Made by a program: the position numbers and the translations under genes
Shown: positions 2,348 through 12,679 of the stretch, piece by piece
Numbering within the stretch: the first letter of the stretch is position 1
How the letters are laid out: each line of letters opens with the position of its first letter
Virus genome (UHGV): UHGV-0090146
Strand: one strand, 5' to 3'
Length of the DNA: 13,371 bases
From: a virus
Notes under the pieces: model-generated
Databases searched by the model: none
The model's input: only the letters and a program-made list of their open reading frames with translations
What the model was told of the DNA's origin: nothing

Positions 2348-4261
2348 ATGGCTACCACACCAACCAATAAACCAATTCCGTCAGAAGACCCTCGTGACCT
2401 GAAATTTAATGCCGGAAAGATTGACGAGGTAGTGACATCTGACGCGCATTACTACACCGACCGCTTCGGTGTGCGCCGCTGGACAATTGCTGGATTTCAG
2501 CACACCGCAGAAGAAGCAATCAGTAACTATGGATACATTACGATGGACAGCTTCGAAGATGGTGCGACACTGACGCTACCTAATCAGGTTTTGCGTTATG
2601 AGGCAACTGGAGAATATTACCGTTGGGATGGTGAGTTTCCTAAAACCGTTTCTGTAGGTTCTACCCCTGAAACTGCTGGCGGTATTGGGATTGGCGCGTG
2701 GGTTAGTGTTGGCGATGCGTCATTGAGGCATGAACTTGAAATCACAAGCGCTATTCCTTTTGTAAGGCCAGAAAATTTCGGTGGTGTAGGTGATGGAGTG
2801 ACGGATGATACAAATGCAATAAAAGCTGTTATAGCAACTGGGAAACCAATTTCTTTAGTAGGTAAAAAGTGGCTAATAACATCTACCATAGAATTTCCTG
2901 ATGGATATGCTGTTGATGCAAGGTCGTCAGAAATAGTTGCGGACACAGGCTCTGCACCTATCTTCCTTTTTAAGGGTAATAATCTTGGTATGCATTTCAC
3001 AGGCTCATTAGTGAGAGGGACTGCTGGTGCATTCATGAAGTTGGAAGGCCAGACAGATGCGCCTACAGCAAGCAATCAATATGCTAAATTATTAAAACTT
3101 AGTGGTGTCCATATCTCCTCGGCAACTATAGATGCCGCTCTTATTTTCGATAAGGCAGTACGAATAATATTCATTGATAGTTGTGTGTTCTTTTGCAGAA
3201 ACGGAATAATTAGCAATGGTAAGTCTGTAGAGATTACCATTCAAAAATCAGTTATATACGGTGCCACGAGTGATACTGATACTTCTGGTATAAAAATAAC
3301 AAGTTCAGGTGGTGCAAGCAAGTACAGTGAGGGGTGGCATATTTCAGACTGCACAATAGATAATTTCGAAAATACAATTGATCTATCCGATATATTTGTA
3401 TTCACCTTAAATGGTGGCTACACGGCATGTAATTCTAATACCGGATATGCTATTACCGTGCGCGGACCGACTACAACAACTCACTGTCGAGATCTTTATT
3501 TTAACGGCATGTTTGGCGGTAAAATTCGCTTCCTTGACCAAACTGCTGGTCCTGTAACTATGCATGCCAGGATAACAGGAGAACTCCTGTTCACTAAGGC
3601 AGGAACGTGTCTTGCTATTGGGGCAAACATGGCGGCAATTGATATCAGCAACTTAAAGATTGTATCTGCAACGCCTGGTAACACTGCCATCTCTGTAGCG
3701 AACGGGAGTGCCAATATTAATATCCGTGGGATTAGTACAGATGCAACTCTTGGGGCAGGGATTATATTTAATGGGGAGTCAGGCAGTAACTGCTCGATTT
3801 CTGATTTTTCATATTCTGGTTCTGGAGAGGCTTTATCACTTGCTAGGCCAGTTAAGCTTTCCAACGTTCCTACAGTTGGTAGCGAAACTTTGAATTGGTC
3901 AATAAAGTACGATTATGTATCTGCATCAAAAGATGTTGCAGTTGGGTCTTACATAAATCAACTGCAAATGACTATTGCAAGATATAGCAAGATTAAGATT
4001 AATATTAACCTCGCATATTCAGGTGGGGCAGCAAGCAATTCTCAAGTTATTGGAATAACAGTCCCTACTGGGGTGGTTCTGCCAAATGGTACGAACTCGA
4101 TGCAGTTCACATTACCAGCAACTGCTGGAACATTAACTATGAGCATTGATGCAACAACAACGCTAGACTTCAAGAATCTGTCATTCAGCATCGATAACAG
4201 AGCTGGTAACCAACTGCGTATTTTGGCCGGCTCTCACTTGTCTGTATCTTTAGATAATTAA
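2348..4261 (+). CDS. Tailspike / tail fiber with pectate-lyase-like right-handed beta-helix (probable polysaccharide depolymerase, receptor-binding protein)
   Basis: 637-aa ORF with AAGGAG at 2331-2336 upstream of ATG 2348. Motif FGGVGDGVTDDTNAIKAVIATG is typical of the Pectate_lyase_3 / beta-helix N-cap (established family signature). The first ~130 aa form a separate N-terminal domain. A terminator follows. Confidence 0.85.
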   Translation: MATTPTNKPIPSEDPRDLKFNAGKIDEVVTSDAHYYTDRFGVRRWTIAGFQHTAEEAISNYGYITMDSFEDGATLTLPNQVLRYEATGEYYRWDGEFPKTVSVGSTPETAGGIGIGAWVSVGDASLRHELEITSAIPFVRPENFGGVGDGVTDDTNAIKAVIATGKPISLVGKKWLITSTIEFPDGYAVDARSSEIVADTGSAPIFLFKGNNLGMHFTGSLVRGTAGAFMKLEGQTDAPTASNQYAKLLKLSGVHISSATIDAALIFDKAVRIIFIDSCVFFCRNGIISNGKSVEITIQKSVIYGATSDTDTSGIKITSSGGASKYSEGWHISDCTIDNFENTIDLSDIFVFTLNGGYTACNSNTGYAITVRGPTTTTHCRDLYFNGMFGGKIRFLDQTAGPVTMHARITGELLFTKAGTCLAIGANMAAIDISNLKIVSATPGNTAISVANGSANINIRGISTDATLGAGIIFNGESGSNCSISDFSYSGSGEALSLARPVKLSNVPTVGSETLNWSIKYDYVSASKDVAVGSYINQLQMTIARYSKIKININLAYSGGAASNSQVIGITVPTGVVLPNGTNSMQFTLPATAGTLTMSIDATTTLDFKNLSFSIDNRAGNQLRILAGSHLSVSLDN

Positions 4262-4270
4262 CTATCAACT

Positions 4271-4298
4271 AAAACCCCGCTTCGGCGGGGTTTTTTTT
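4271..4298. terminator. Bidirectional rho-independent terminator between convergent tailspike and ssb
   Basis: Hairpin CCCCGC-TTCG-GCGGGG (4275-4290) preceded by AAAA and followed by TTTTTTTT, so it can terminate on either strand. Confidence 0.8.
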
Positions 4299-4302
4299 AT
4301 CA

Positions 4303-4803
4303 TCAGAATGGAATGTCGTCATCGAAGTCCATCGGAGGCTCATTTCCTCCTTGTGGGCTTTGTTGTTTTGGTTGCTGCTGTTGCGGTGTTCCCCATCCTC
4401 CTTGAGGTTGCTGTCCTGATTGCTTGCGTGATTGTTGCTGACCAGAATCATCGCGCTTGCCGCCAAGCATCTGCATGACGCCACCCATCTGTGGAATGAC
4501 AATCTCAGTGGTATATCGGTCTACGCCGTTGCTGTCAGTCCATTTGCGAGTGCGAAGCTGACCTTCGATATAAACCTGCGAGCTTTTGTGAAGGTATTCT
4601 CCTGCAACTTCCGCAAGTTTCCCGAAAATGACTACGCGATGCCACTCTGTCTGTTCTTTCTTTTCTCCTGTCTGCTTGTCTTTCCACTGCTCAGATGTTG
4701 CAACGGAAAGATTGGCAATAGCAGAGCCAGATGCAGAATATTTAACTTCCGGATCGTTACCGAGAGTGCCGACAATAATTACTTTATTTACGCCGCGTGC
4801 CAT
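4303..4803 (-). CDS. ssb: Single-stranded DNA-binding protein
   Basis: 166 aa, near-collinear with E. coli SSB: [49 protein letters not shown], a Gly/Gln/Pro-rich linker and the acidic C-terminal tip [20 protein letters not shown] 9 nt upstream. Confidence 0.95.
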
Positions 4804-9196: not shown

Positions 9197-9271
9197 AGCA
9201 ACTAACCTTTGTTGATGTTTCTACGTCAGTTAGCTTATACTCAATCTACACCAACAATCAAGGGTCAATTT
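9197..9271. promoter_or_regulatory. Divergent intergenic control region between helicase (-) and primase (+)
   Basis: 75-bp gap between divergent starts. Plus strand has TTGATG (9212-9217), 18-nt spacer, TATACT (9236-9241). A weaker candidate exists on the minus strand. Confidence 0.3.
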
Positions 9272-10225
9272 ATGAGATACGACTGGAAGGACATTGAACC
9301 AAAAATGCTCGGAAATTGGCAAGCTGCCATCATGTCTATCGTCAATGTGGATAGCAGAGTTTTCAATGGCAAGCACCAGCCATGCCCGTCATGCCTTGGC
9401 AAAGACAGGTATCGTTTTGATGATAACTTCGAAACAAAAGGCGATGGCGGAGCAATCTGCAACCAGTGTGGTTCCGGAAGCGGAATGAACTGGCTGATGA
9501 GACTATCCGGAATGAGCTTTCCTGAAGCACTGGAGGCGCTGGGAGGATTCCTGAACATGCACCCTCGCGAAAAGCTGGAGGCAATCAGGAAGGAACTACC
9601 GAAGATAAATCACAACGATGACTTCATCACCGAGCAGGAAGTCGCCGCGATCATGGCTAAAACGACTTGTGTCGCGATGAGTGAGTGGACGCTGATAAAT
9701 GGTATTGGTTGCGACATTAACGTCGTCAGAGGTAAATCCAGAGAGCTTATTGCGGTTGAGATGATGCGCTCTGACACAATGAAGCCATGCAACGTGGCAT
9801 TCATTGGCATGGGTGGTGATTCATTCAAAACTTTTTTCCGCGCAGGATACAACAAGTACTCAGCCATCAACGGTAAACTCACGCGCGGCGCGATAAGCCC
9901 AATCGGAGAAGATAACGGAAAGTTCATTTACCTGGTATCTGATTATGCAGATGCGTGGAAATGCCATTACTTCACTGGTGCGCATGTCTGGTGCTGCTGG
10001 TCGCCGGAAAACATGTGGGAAGTGGTGCGCTCTGTTAGCGATGAGGTGAAAGCGAGGTTGCGCTGCATAGTTAATTATAAATTCGACGAGCTGTGCGCCG
10101 CAGAGAATGCAGGCCTTCCGGTGATGCTTCCTGATGATGCTGACACTATCAGGATGGCAAAGAGAATCATGAGAAAGATTTATGACGCTGGCGAGTTGAT
10201 AGAAAAAATGTCAGTCAGCAGATAA
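9272..10225 (+). CDS. DNA primase (N-terminal zinc-ribbon; Toprim-like core inferred)
   Basis: Zinc-binding signature CPSCLGKDRYRFDD...GGAICNQCGSGSGMNWL, typical of phage/plasmid primase N-termini. AAGGG RBS 7 nt before ATG 9272. The track ORF begins at 9209 but would overlap the helicase start and candidate promoter. Confidence 0.65.
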   Translation: MRYDWKDIEPKMLGNWQAAIMSIVNVDSRVFNGKHQPCPSCLGKDRYRFDDNFETKGDGGAICNQCGSGSGMNWLMRLSGMSFPEALEALGGFLNMHPREKLEAIRKELPKINHNDDFITEQEVAAIMAKTTCVAMSEWTLINGIGCDINVVRGKSRELIAVEMMRSDTMKPCNVAFIGMGGDSFKTFFRAGYNKYSAINGKLTRGAISPIGEDNGKFIYLVSDYADAWKCHYFTGAHVWCCWSPENMWEVVRSVSDEVKARLRCIVNYKFDELCAAENAGLPVMLPDDADTIRMAKRIMRKIYDAGELIEKMSVSR

Positions 10226-10228
10226 AGG

Positions 10229-10253
10229 AAACCCTCCGATTGGAGGGTTTTTG
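10229..10253. terminator. Bidirectional rho-independent terminator between convergent primase and minus-strand operon
   Basis: Hairpin CCCTCC-GATT-GGAGGG (10232-10247) flanked by AAA on one side and TTTTT on the other. Confidence 0.75.
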
Positions 10254-10670
10254 TTATTCATTGAACTCTGGCGCTTGAGTCCAGAAGGCTACATTTCGCA
10301 GCGACTTACCCGTGTGATTGCACCAGTATATTCCTGAGTCATCATACTTGGCAGTAACCTTGACTCGATCAGCATCAATAATAACAACCTCCTGCCCATC
10401 ATTAGGGTCGAAAAGACGCGCATCTTTCCAGTTAGCAATCTCATTAAGGGAAAGAAGCACATAACCGGGAAGATAAGCTTCGACATCAGCGATGTGAACT
10501 ATTGTTCGCTCCGCTCTCTCTCCTGTGTAGTCTCCATTCCACTCATAAAGAATAATCGTGTCTCCAACCTTAAAATCACGATCGTTCTTTCTTAGCTCCG
10601 CCTTCTTGTGTCCGGTAACTACAGGCCAGAAGTGTTCAGGTAAGATTTTTAGTTCGTGTTTTTTGCTCAT
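10254..10670 (-). CDS. ASCH / DUF3850-like (PUA-fold) domain protein with C-terminal extension
   Basis: N-terminal MSKKHELKILPEHFWPVVTGHKKAELRKNDRDFKVGDTIILYEW fits the DUF3850/ASCH pattern as recalled. ATG at 10668-10670 has GAGGA 8 nt upstream and lies 1 nt from the stop of the upstream 65-aa gene. The in-frame extension to 10700 is less likely. Confidence 0.6.
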   Translation of the reverse strand: MSKKHELKILPEHFWPVVTGHKKAELRKNDRDFKVGDTIILYEWNGDYTGERAERTIVHIADVEAYLPGYVLLSLNEIANWKDARLFDPNDGQEVVIIDADRVKVTAKYDDSGIYWCNHTGKSLRNVAFWTQAPEFNE

Positions 10671-10671
10671 T

Positions 10672-10869
10672 TCAAACATCCTCATAACACCAATATGCAA
10701 CGCAAATTATTTCAACCAAATCATTTGATGATAAAAATTTATTACCATCATAAATTGCGTGAATTCTTTCACCATCAACAGTTAATGCCATAACATTTCT
10801 TCCTATCTGCGGACGCCAGAGATAGCAATCAAACCATTCAACATCATACCAATCATCTTCTGGACTCAT
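10672..10869 (-). CDS. Hypothetical protein (65 aa), translationally coupled
   Basis: ATG overlaps the stop of the 491-aa gene (ATGA) and is preceded by GAGGT. Its stop lies 1 nt before the ASCH gene start. No recognisable motif. Confidence 0.55.
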   Translation of the reverse strand: MSPEDDWYDVEWFDCYLWRPQIGRNVMALTVDGERIHAIYDGNKFLSSNDLVEIICVAYWCYEDV

Positions 10870-12650: not shown

Positions 12651-12679
12651 ATTATATAAAGATATAAACGAAATGGCAA
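12651..12679 (-). promoter_or_regulatory. Sigma70-like promoter for the minus-strand operon
   Basis: On the minus strand: TTGCCA (plus 12674-12679), exact 17-nt spacer, perfect TATAAT (plus 12651-12656). About 30-40 nt upstream of the first minus-strand ORF. Confidence 0.55.

What the first reader, a model, noticed from the sequence alone, without database searches (positions are those of the whole stretch)
4271..4298. Module boundaries marked by bidirectional terminators at both convergent junctions
Symmetric hairpins flanked by A-runs and T-runs sit at 4271-4298 (tailspike against ssb) and 10229-10253 (primase against the ASCH operon). They overlap or abut stop codons, indicating tight insulation of convergent transcription units.
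Basis: seen in the sequence. Interest (0 to 1): 0.2.

Follow-up and report, generated by a model that had tools for sequence, protein, structure and literature searches.

The report
Two-way transcription terminators between converging phage genes
Two short GC-rich hairpins with A-runs on one side and T-runs on the other fill the gaps where phage genes converge; they are ordinary two-way transcription stop signals, already annotated as such in a related phage genome.

Summary
AAAACCCCGC-TTCG-GCGGGGTTTTTTTT lies at 4271-4298, between the tailspike and ssb. (GG)AAACCCTCC-GATT-GGAGGGTTTTTG lies at 10227-10253, between the primase and a DUF3850/ASCH gene. They fill convergent gaps of 41 and 28 nt and lie 1-9 nt from the four stop codons.

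A d'Aubenton-Carafa-type score is positive at only four strand-sites in the 13.4-kb window: these two hairpins on both strands. None of 200 shuffles gave a two-way site.

The signals are asymmetric. The + strand is strong (54 and 30). The - strand is weaker (15.5) or marginal (4.4, tail UUUCCUUUAU).

The window belongs to a Jersey-like (Guernseyvirinae-type) siphophage with no annotated RNA polymerase. Both hairpins are conserved in relatives: 49 of 52 and 22 of 29 loci score on both strands. Loops vary, and a few relatives have unrelated stems at the same positions. In phage IME207, seven of eight convergent junctions carry such a hairpin. Homology with relatives breaks exactly at the hairpin edges.

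GenBank MZ726796.1 already annotates the first site as rho-independent terminators on both strands, and the second on the + strand only. No transcript 3'-end mapping for this phage group was found. Verdict: real, interpretation supported, ordinary.

The parts
4271..4298 (.). Terminator T1. A4 (4271-4274), stem CCCCGC (4275-4280), loop TTCG (4281-4284; a C(UUCG)G tetraloop on the + strand RNA), stem GCGGGG (4285-4290), T8 (4291-4298). It reads as a terminator on both strands.
   Evidence: fold, z -5.9 and -4.8. (score +54.2 and -15.5... i.e. 54.2 on the + strand, 15.5 on the - strand). (shuffles). (conservation; 4 stem types at this position in relatives). (homologous site annotated as two rho-independent terminators in MZ726796.1).
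10227..10253 (.). Terminator T2. GGAAA (10227-10231), stem CCCTCC (10232-10237), loop GATT (10238-10241), stem GGAGGG (10242-10247), T5 plus G (10248-10253). Strong on the + strand, marginal on the - strand (tail UUUCCUUUAU).
   Evidence: (score 30.1 on +, 4.4 on -). (stem identical in 50 of 52 relatives, down to 57% primase identity; 9 loop variants). (annotated as a + strand terminator in MZ726796.1). (annotated as repeat_region in Vi II-E1).
2348..4261 (+). Tailspike gene, the last gene of the + strand tail operon. Its transcript would end at T1.
   Evidence: Tail_spike_N, 2.2e-18. (aa 132-637 are 71% identical to a podophage tailspike; only about the first 139 aa match the family).
4303..4803 (-). 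ssb, the last gene of the - strand operon helicase / recombinase / exonuclease / ssb (9196 down to 4303). Its transcript would end at T1 on the - strand. It ends in three in-frame stops, TGA TGA TAA.
   Evidence: SSB, 2.4e-37..
9272..10225 (+). Primase gene, a lone + strand gene among - strand replication genes. Its transcript would end at T2. The start at 9272 is inferred from the 954-nt homologues.
   Evidence: Zn_Ribbon_Prim, 7.7e-12. (homologue lengths)..
10254..10700 (-). DUF3850/ASCH gene (true start probably downstream of the first TTG). It is the last gene of the - strand operon that begins with the DUF3987 protein (12341 down to 10254). Its transcript would end at T2 on the - strand.
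   Evidence: DUF3850 8.1e-20, ASCH 6.2e-05.

Best explanation
Both elements are canonical Rho-independent (intrinsic) terminators read by the host RNA polymerase. No RNA polymerase is annotated in the complete relative IME207.

Proposed mechanism: on either strand the nascent RNA forms a 6-bp GC-rich stem with a 4-nt loop just before a U-rich tract. The hairpin and the weak rU:dA hybrid then release the transcript. The stem is a palindrome, and the A-run on one side is the U-run for the opposite strand. One 25-28 nt element can therefore stop both converging transcription units within a few bases of the opposing stop codon. That prevents antisense read-through into the neighbouring module.

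T1 ends the tail/tailspike operon strongly (UUCG tetraloop, U8). It ends the helicase-to-ssb operon moderately (UUUUAGUU).

T2 ends the single-gene primase transcript strongly (U5GUU). It ends the DUF3987-to-ASCH operon only weakly in this window (UUUCCUUU), so some - strand read-through, antisense to the primase, is plausible.

Shown here: sequence, fold, statistical excess, conservation, position, and coincidence with mosaic breakpoints. Inferred: that termination actually occurs, and how efficient it is on each strand.
For: 1. Structure and score. Stable hairpins on both strands, kept in 140-nt transcript contexts. They are the only four positive terminator scores in the window: 54.2, 30.1, 15.5 and 4.4. 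In 200 shuffles the mean was about 0.1 positive sites, with 0 two-way sites.

2. Position. They fill the only two convergent gaps (41 and 28 nt) and lie 1-9 nt from all four stop codons.

3. Conservation pattern typical of a structure.
- T2: stem identical in 50 of 52 relatives, with 9 different loops. One relative (L103) has an unrelated GC hairpin with A and T flanks.
- T1: 22 of 29 relatives have the same stem, and 5 have unrelated stems (GGGCC/GGCCC, GCTCC/GGGGC) at the same place.
- Both strands score above 0 in 49 of 52 and 22 of 29 loci.

4. A general rule in the family. In complete genome IME207, 7 of 8 convergent junctions carry one such hairpin, and 6 are positive on both strands. 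Thirteen of the 19 positive strand-sites lie in those 7 gaps, which total 184 nt of 47.6 kb.

5. Independent annotation. MZ726796.1 marks the homologue of T1 as rho-independent terminators on both strands and the homologue of T2 on the + strand, using TransTermHP and WebGeSTer.

6. Precedent. A phage hairpin between convergent genes, flanked by A- and U-tracts, terminated 97-99% in the antisense orientation in reporter assays (LUZ7 T50, PMC10204088).

7. No RNA polymerase gene is annotated in IME207, so host-type terminators are the relevant signal.
Against: - No transcript 3'-end data for this phage or its relatives were found. The one Guernseyvirinae RNA-seq paper found (PMC12645636) does not mention terminators.
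- The - strand U-tracts are interrupted. T2 on the - strand scores only 4.4 and was not called by the ASO78B annotators. The generic scan did not list T1 on the - strand, because it counted the A-U pairs as stem.
- The scoring formula was recalled from memory and used modern energy parameters, so the absolute threshold is approximate.
- The T2 stem shows no compensatory changes. Its conservation alone cannot distinguish selection on structure from selection on sequence.
Confidence: 0.82

Rival explanations
1. The elements are effectively one-way terminators, for the + strand only. The upstream A-runs merely extend the stem or reflect AT-rich gene ends. The - strand operons would end by read-through decay, Rho, or collision.
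For: The - strand scores are much lower: 15.5 and 4.4, against 54.2 and 30.1. The T2 - strand tail is UUUCCUUUAU. ASO78B annotators called only the + strand at T2. Most natural terminators tested in PMC10204088 were weak in the antisense orientation.
Against: The A-rich flank next to the T2 stem is kept in all 51 relatives that carry this hairpin, even where it is coding sequence (K-N-K-P-S-stop). In relatives the - strand tail is usually better (UUUCUUUUAU or UUUAUUUUUU, scores 17-33), and 49 of 52 are positive on both strands. At T1 the ssb-direction T-run persists although the tailspike modules beyond it are unrelated. The T1 homologue is annotated on both strands.
Confidence: 0.15
2. The hairpins act mainly as pause sites that position head-on collisions between converging RNA polymerases. 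Under this model the collision, not intrinsic termination, releases the transcripts. This is the collision-driven bidirectional termination described for E. coli convergent gene pairs.
For: They lie between convergent genes and encode a hairpin in the overlap region, as in that model (10.1101/2022.10.23.513370). PMC10204088 suggests the same may apply to phage convergent pairs. It could compensate for the weak - strand tails.
Against: That class was described as not resembling intrinsic terminators and as terminating poorly when transcribed from one side only. Here the + strand signals are textbook intrinsic terminators (U8 and U5). The tail and replication operons that meet at T1 may be expressed at different times, which would limit collisions; this is an inference and was not tested.
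Confidence: 0.08
3. The palindromes are selected mainly at the DNA level. They could be short conserved linker sequences at which modules recombine, or binding sites for a phage protein. Termination would then be secondary.
For: Homology with relatives starts at 4267-4273 (24 HSPs) and ends at 10257-10264 (18 HSPs), which are the hairpin edges. At least six different genes follow T2 in relatives. Fourteen of 20 combinations of loop variant and downstream gene type occur. The T2 stem is invariant down to 57% primase identity, while T1 and other junctions tolerate different stems. The phage encodes its own recombinase and exonuclease.
Against: Gene ends are expected mosaic breakpoints whatever the mechanism, because only those recombinants are viable. 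15 bp of identity is short for homologous exchange. The loop and downstream-type combinations can also arise from repeated loop mutation or inversion. The A and T flanks and the GC stem are exactly what termination requires. Seven different hairpin sequences serve the seven convergent junctions of IME207, so no common DNA motif exists.
Confidence: 0.06
4. The hairpins are chance palindromes or dispersed repeat elements (REP- or MITE-like) with no role in transcription.
For: One record (Vi II-E1) labels the T2 homologue only as repeat_region.
Against: Each hairpin is single-copy in the window. None of 200 shuffles gives a comparable site. Position and sequence are conserved in dozens of relatives. 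There is no Rfam match.
Confidence: 0.01

Closest known systems
Canonical bidirectional intrinsic terminators between convergent genes (for example phage LUZ7 T50, PMC10204088; from memory, the classical E. coli tonB-P14 terminator of Postle and Good 1985)
   Same: A single GC-rich hairpin with an A-tract on one side and a U-tract on the other. It sits in a short gap between convergent genes and reads as a terminator on both strands.
   Different: Not tested experimentally here. The two directions are unequal, and T2 on the - strand has an interrupted U-tract.
Predicted terminators annotated in the related phage vB_EcoS_ASO78B (GenBank MZ726796.1)
   Same: Homologous positions (tail fibre/ssb and primase/ASCH-like gene) and near-identical hairpin sequence. 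The T1 homologue is annotated on both strands.
   Different: The window has an uninterrupted T8 at T1, where IMG/VR relatives have TTAGTTTT or TTATTTTT. It has GG in the T2 A-flank, which weakens the - strand tail. In ASO78B, T2 is annotated on the + strand only.
Collision-driven overlapping bidirectional terminators of E. coli (Ju et al. 2019, cited; Wang et al., 10.1101/2022.10.23.513370)
   Same: Located between convergent gene pairs. The hairpin is encoded in a region that both transcripts would cover.
   Different: Those elements were described as unlike intrinsic terminators and as weak when transcribed from one side. These are textbook intrinsic terminators, at least on the + strand.
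Boundary or linker sequences at mosaic junctions of phage genomes (from memory: modular theory of Susskind and Botstein 1978; lambdoid boundary sequences of Clark et al. 2001)
   Same: A short conserved sequence sits exactly where homologous and non-homologous modules meet.
   Different: No evidence here that recombination uses the hairpin sequence. The coincidence may only reflect which recombinants are viable.

Membership tests
Intrinsic (Rho-independent) terminator | GC-rich stem of about 5-14 bp with a 3-8 nt loop, stable as RNA | tested here: met
   A 6-bp stem (6 or 5 G-C pairs) with a 4-nt loop, extendable by A-U pairs. Energy -14.5 to -17.1 kcal/mol, z -4.1 to -5.9 on all four strand-sites.
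Intrinsic (Rho-independent) terminator | U-rich tract of about 7-9 nt directly after the stem | tested here: met
   On the + strand: T1 UUUUUUUU, T2 UUUUUGUU. On the - strand only partly: T1 UUUUAGUU, T2 UUUCCUUU.
Intrinsic (Rho-independent) terminator | Located just downstream of the last stop codon of a transcription unit | tested here: met
   1-9 nt from the stops of the tailspike, ssb, primase and DUF3850/ASCH genes. Each is the last gene of a same-strand gene run.
Intrinsic (Rho-independent) terminator | Transcript 3' ends and RNA polymerase release at the U-tract | not testable with these tools
   Needs Term-seq, a reporter assay or in vitro transcription. No such data for this phage group were found.
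Bidirectional intrinsic terminator | The same hairpin scores as a terminator on both strands (an A-tract mirrors the U-tract) | tested here: met
   The score is above 0 on both strands at both sites, though T2 on the - strand is marginal (4.4). In relatives 49 of 52 and 22 of 29 loci are positive on both strands.
Bidirectional intrinsic terminator | Lies between a convergent gene pair | tested here: met
   The same holds at 7 of 8 convergent junctions of IME207.
Collision-driven bidirectional terminator (Ju 2019 / Wang 2023) | Does not resemble an intrinsic terminator and terminates poorly when transcribed from one side only | tested here: not met
   The + strand signals are canonical. Dependence on convergent transcription cannot be tested here.
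Dispersed palindromic repeat (REP/BIME- or MITE-like) | Multiple copies of the same palindrome across the genome | tested here: not met
   Each hairpin is single-copy in the window. The seven junction hairpins of IME207 all differ in sequence.
Curated RNA family (Rfam 15) | Match at the gathering score | tested here: not met
   No match anywhere in the window.

The most novel reading that the evidence does not exclude
The terminator palindromes may have a second role as the short shared sequences at which this phage family exchanges modules, perhaps through its own recombinase and exonuclease. That would explain three observations. First, homology breakpoints fall on the hairpin edges. Second, the gene slot after T2 is hypervariable. 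Third, the T2 stem CCCTCC/GGAGGG with its TTTTTGTTA tail stays identical across primases only 57% identical, even when the stop codon has moved into the loop. The reverse-complement loop pairs (CGAA/TTCG, GATT/AATC, TGAT/ATCA) show that these palindromes are also active sites of DNA-level rearrangement, probably template switching.
Probability: 0.12. Interest if true: 0.4.

Novelty: already known. Interest (0 to 1): 0.12.

Why it matters
The practical value is small. The hairpins define the 3' ends of four transcription units in this phage. They explain how a lone + strand primase gene can sit inside - strand replication operons without antisense interference. They also show a tidy family-wide rule: one two-way hairpin per convergent junction. 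Such compact elements (25-28 nt) could serve as parts for synthetic biology, where bidirectional terminators are in short supply (PMC10204088). None of this changes current understanding of termination or of phage genome organisation.

Tried and rejected
- A formal covariation test at T1 was dropped. MAFFT misaligned the relatives that carry unrelated stems. Whole-stem replacement is reported from anchored extraction instead.
- I compared a tree of the last 600 nt of the primase with loop variants and downstream gene types, to localise recombination to the hairpin. The result was reticulate everywhere, so it is inconclusive for the hairpin itself.
- The Rfam scan of the window found nothing.
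- Ju et al. 2019 (PMC6814526) is not held in the library. Its content is cited only through papers that describe it.
- The one Guernseyvirinae transcriptome paper (PMC12645636) does not mention terminators and gives no 3'-end data.
- The searches for 'Jerseyvirinae' plus 'terminators' returned only genome announcements and one comparative analysis of Acinetobacter phages.
- Dispersed-repeat and chance explanations were rejected.
- The terminator score formula (d = 96.59 x (-dG/length) + 18.16 x nT - 116.87) is recalled from d'Aubenton Carafa et al. 1990 and was applied with ViennaRNA energies. It is used for ranking and shuffle comparison, not as a calibrated threshold.

Full report
**What is in the sequence**

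At 4271-4298 the + strand reads AAAA-CCCCGC-TTCG-GCGGGG-TTTTTTTT. At 10227-10253 it reads GGAAA-CCCTCC-GATT-GGAGGG-TTTTTG.

- tailspike, 2348-4261, + strand (Tail_spike_N)
- ssb, 4303-4803, - strand (SSB)
- primase, about 9272-10225, + strand (Zn_Ribbon_Prim)
- a DUF3850/ASCH gene, from 10254, - strand

These are the only two places in the window where + and - strand genes converge. The gaps are 41 and 28 nt. The hairpins with their flanks lie 9, 4, 3 and 1 nt from the four stop codons. The claim that they 'abut stop codons' is therefore right.

**Is it more than chance?**

As RNA, all four strand-sites fold into the expected hairpin at -14.5 to -17.1 kcal/mol, with z-scores of -4.1 to -5.9. 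None of 200 shuffles folds as well. The hairpin is still the 3'-terminal structure in the minimum-energy and centroid folds of 140-nt transcript ends.

In the generic terminator scan they are the top three entries. That scan misses T1 on the - strand only because it counts the A-U pairs as stem, which leaves too few T in the tail.

I scored every perfect hairpin in the window on both strands. The score is of the d'Aubenton-Carafa type; the formula is recalled from memory and uses ViennaRNA energies. Only four strand-sites are positive, and they are these two hairpins on both strands:

| Site | + strand | - strand |
|---|---|---|
| T1 | 54.2 | 15.5 |
| T2 | 30.1 | 4.4 |

The next best candidate scores -15. 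In 200 dinucleotide-preserving shuffles the mean number of positive sites was 0.07 and 0.045 per strand, and no shuffle had a two-way site.

Each hairpin is single-copy in the window. Nothing in the window matches an Rfam family.

**Asymmetry**

The flanks are not symmetric. T1 has A4 against T8, and T2 has A3 against T5. As a result the + strand signals are textbook: a UUCG tetraloop with U8, and U5GUU. The - strand tails are interrupted: UUUUAGUU at T1 and UUUCCUUU at T2. T2 on the - strand is the weakest and is marginal.

**What the window is**

The window is about 90% identical over 73-80% of its length to E. coli, Salmonella and Klebsiella siphophages such as HC6 and IME207. Other relatives include Akira, KFS-SE2 and DS8. 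Calling this group Jersey-like or Guernseyvirinae-type is my own reading of those hits; the record taxonomy only gives Caudoviricetes or the genus Shuimuvirus.

The annotation of the complete IME207 genome lists no RNA polymerase. Host-type intrinsic terminators are therefore the relevant stop signal.

**Evidence from relatives**

I fetched 80 loci around ssb homologues and 56 around primase homologues. I then extracted the sequence after each stop codon.

Junction 2:
- All 52 usable loci have a hairpin directly after the primase.
- 50 have exactly the stem CCCTCC/GGAGGG. One (L099) has lost a base from the 5' arm, and one (L103) has an unrelated GC hairpin with A and T flanks.
- Nine loop variants occur.
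- 49 of 52 score positive on both strands.
- The stem and the TTTTTGTTA tail stay identical down to 57% primase identity. In that distant group the primase stop codon TGA is the hairpin loop, and the A-rich flank is coding sequence.
- In most relatives the - strand tail is better than in the window (UUUCUUUUAU or UUUAUUUUUU, scores 17-33).

Junction 1:
- Of 29 loci with at least 69% ssb identity, 22 have the stem CCCCGC/GCGGGG, with loops CGAA, TTCG, AGAA or CAAA.
- Five have unrelated GC stems at the same place (GGGCC/GGCCC, GCTCC/GGGGC).
- 22 of 29 score positive on both strands.

Free loops, occasional whole-stem replacement and retained A and T flanks are what a structural transcription signal should show.

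**A family-wide rule**

In IME207, seven of the eight convergent junctions have gaps of 13-36 nt, each filled by one GC hairpin. The eighth is an HNH endonuclease gene that overlaps its neighbour. All seven hairpins differ in sequence. Six score positive on both strands.

Thirteen of the 19 positive strand-sites in the genome lie in those seven gaps, which total 184 nt of 47.6 kb.

**Module boundaries**

BLAST of the window against all fetched loci shows 24 alignments starting at 4267-4273 and none crossing 4150-4400. Eighteen alignments end at 10257-10264.

The tailspike matches the family only over about its first 139 residues. Residues 132-637 are 71% identical to the tailspike of a podophage, vB_EcoP_PAS61.

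The gene after T2 differs among relatives. It can be DUF3850/ASCH, an ASCH-annotated protein, either of two unknown proteins, DUF551, or the DUF3987 protein directly.

The hairpins therefore do mark mosaic boundaries. T1 travels with the ssb block and T2 with the primase block. Whether recombination uses the hairpin sequence is not shown; gene ends are expected breakpoints in any case.

**Prior knowledge**

GenBank MZ726796.1 (phage vB_EcoS_ASO78B) annotates the homologue of T1 as two rho-independent terminators, one per strand. It annotates the homologue of T2 as a + strand terminator. Both calls used TransTermHP and WebGeSTer. Vi II-E1 marks the T2 homologue as a repeat_region.

[quoted passage not shown] One from phage LUZ7 was validated in reporter assays (PMC10204088). 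A collision-assisted variant is described for E. coli (10.1101/2022.10.23.513370).

No 3'-end mapping for this phage group was found.

**Mechanism and verdict**

The most likely reading (confidence about 0.8) is two canonical intrinsic terminators for host RNA polymerase, each serving both converging units.
- T1 stops the tail operon strongly and the helicase-to-ssb operon moderately.
- T2 stops the primase transcript strongly.
- T2 stops the DUF3987-to-ASCH operon weakly in this window, so some - strand read-through antisense to the primase is plausible.

The main rival is that the - strand function is negligible, especially at T2. Collision-assisted termination may contribute. A DNA-level role as a recombination linker is not excluded but is unsupported beyond coincidence of position.

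The thing itself is ordinary and already annotated in a relative.

Noticed in passing
window 4281-4284 and 10238-10241; loci L007, L084, L085, L091, L106, L116: The 4-nt loops occur among relatives as reverse-complement pairs while the stems are unchanged. T1 has CGAA in 19 loci and TTCG in L007. T2 has GATT against AATC, and TGAT in 21 loci against ATCA in L116. Two of the three pairs differ at all four positions. Minute loop inversions, probably by template switching at a perfect palindrome (cf. PMC8794818), are far more likely than point mutations.
   Followed up: partly
L088, L091, L101 (junction 2); L108-L132: In three relatives the T2 palindrome is a perfect 15-bp inverted repeat that includes both stop codons: TAACAAAAACCCTCC-N4-GGAGGGTTTTTGTTA. 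In the group with about 60% primase identity, the primase stop TGA is the hairpin loop and the 5' arm encodes the last residues (K-P-S).
   Followed up: partly
window 4297-4305, - strand: ssb ends in three consecutive in-frame stop codons, TGA TGA TAA. The last one begins the A-run of the terminator. The arrangement is conserved in most relatives.
   Followed up: no
window 2740-4261: Tailspike residues 132-637 are 71% identical to the tailspike of a podophage, vB_EcoP_PAS61 (39 kb). Only about the first 139 residues match the siphophage family. This is a receptor-binding module swapped across families, and it suggests an E. coli host.
   Followed up: partly
window 10254-10869 and the homologous slot in L083-L137: The gene slot immediately after T2 on the - strand is hypervariable. 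It holds DUF3850/ASCH, an ASCH-annotated protein, two unknown ORFs (150 and 136 aa), DUF551, or no insert so that the DUF3987 protein follows directly.
   Followed up: partly
window 9197-9271: The window lacks the 264-nt ORF that lies upstream of the helicase in HC6 (HC6_0070) and IME207 (gp79). The 75-nt divergent gap has a promoter-like site for the primase, TTGATG-18-TATACT, at 9212-9241. By eye there is also an overlapping - strand TTGATT-16-TATAAG whose -10 element shares bases with the + strand -10.
   Followed up: no
window 12651-12679, - strand: The best sigma-70-like site in the window is TTGCCA-17-TATAAT (11 of 12 matches). It lies upstream of the - strand DUF3987-to-ASCH operon and is the likely start of the transcript that T2 would end on the - strand.
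   Followed up: no
GenBank OR544125.1 (hits H6, H27): A record named 'Acinetobacter phage vB_AbaM_AB4P2' is about 90% identical to this E. coli/Salmonella siphophage group over 76% of the window. That is an unexpected host and morphotype label.
   Followed up: no
L139 (IME207) 17368-17382: The highest-scoring terminator-like hairpin in IME207 is GGGGGCGAAGCCCCC (score 43 on the - strand, 10.5 on the + strand). It lies between two co-directional + strand structural genes rather than at a convergent junction. Its stronger orientation opposes the flanking genes.
   Followed up: no
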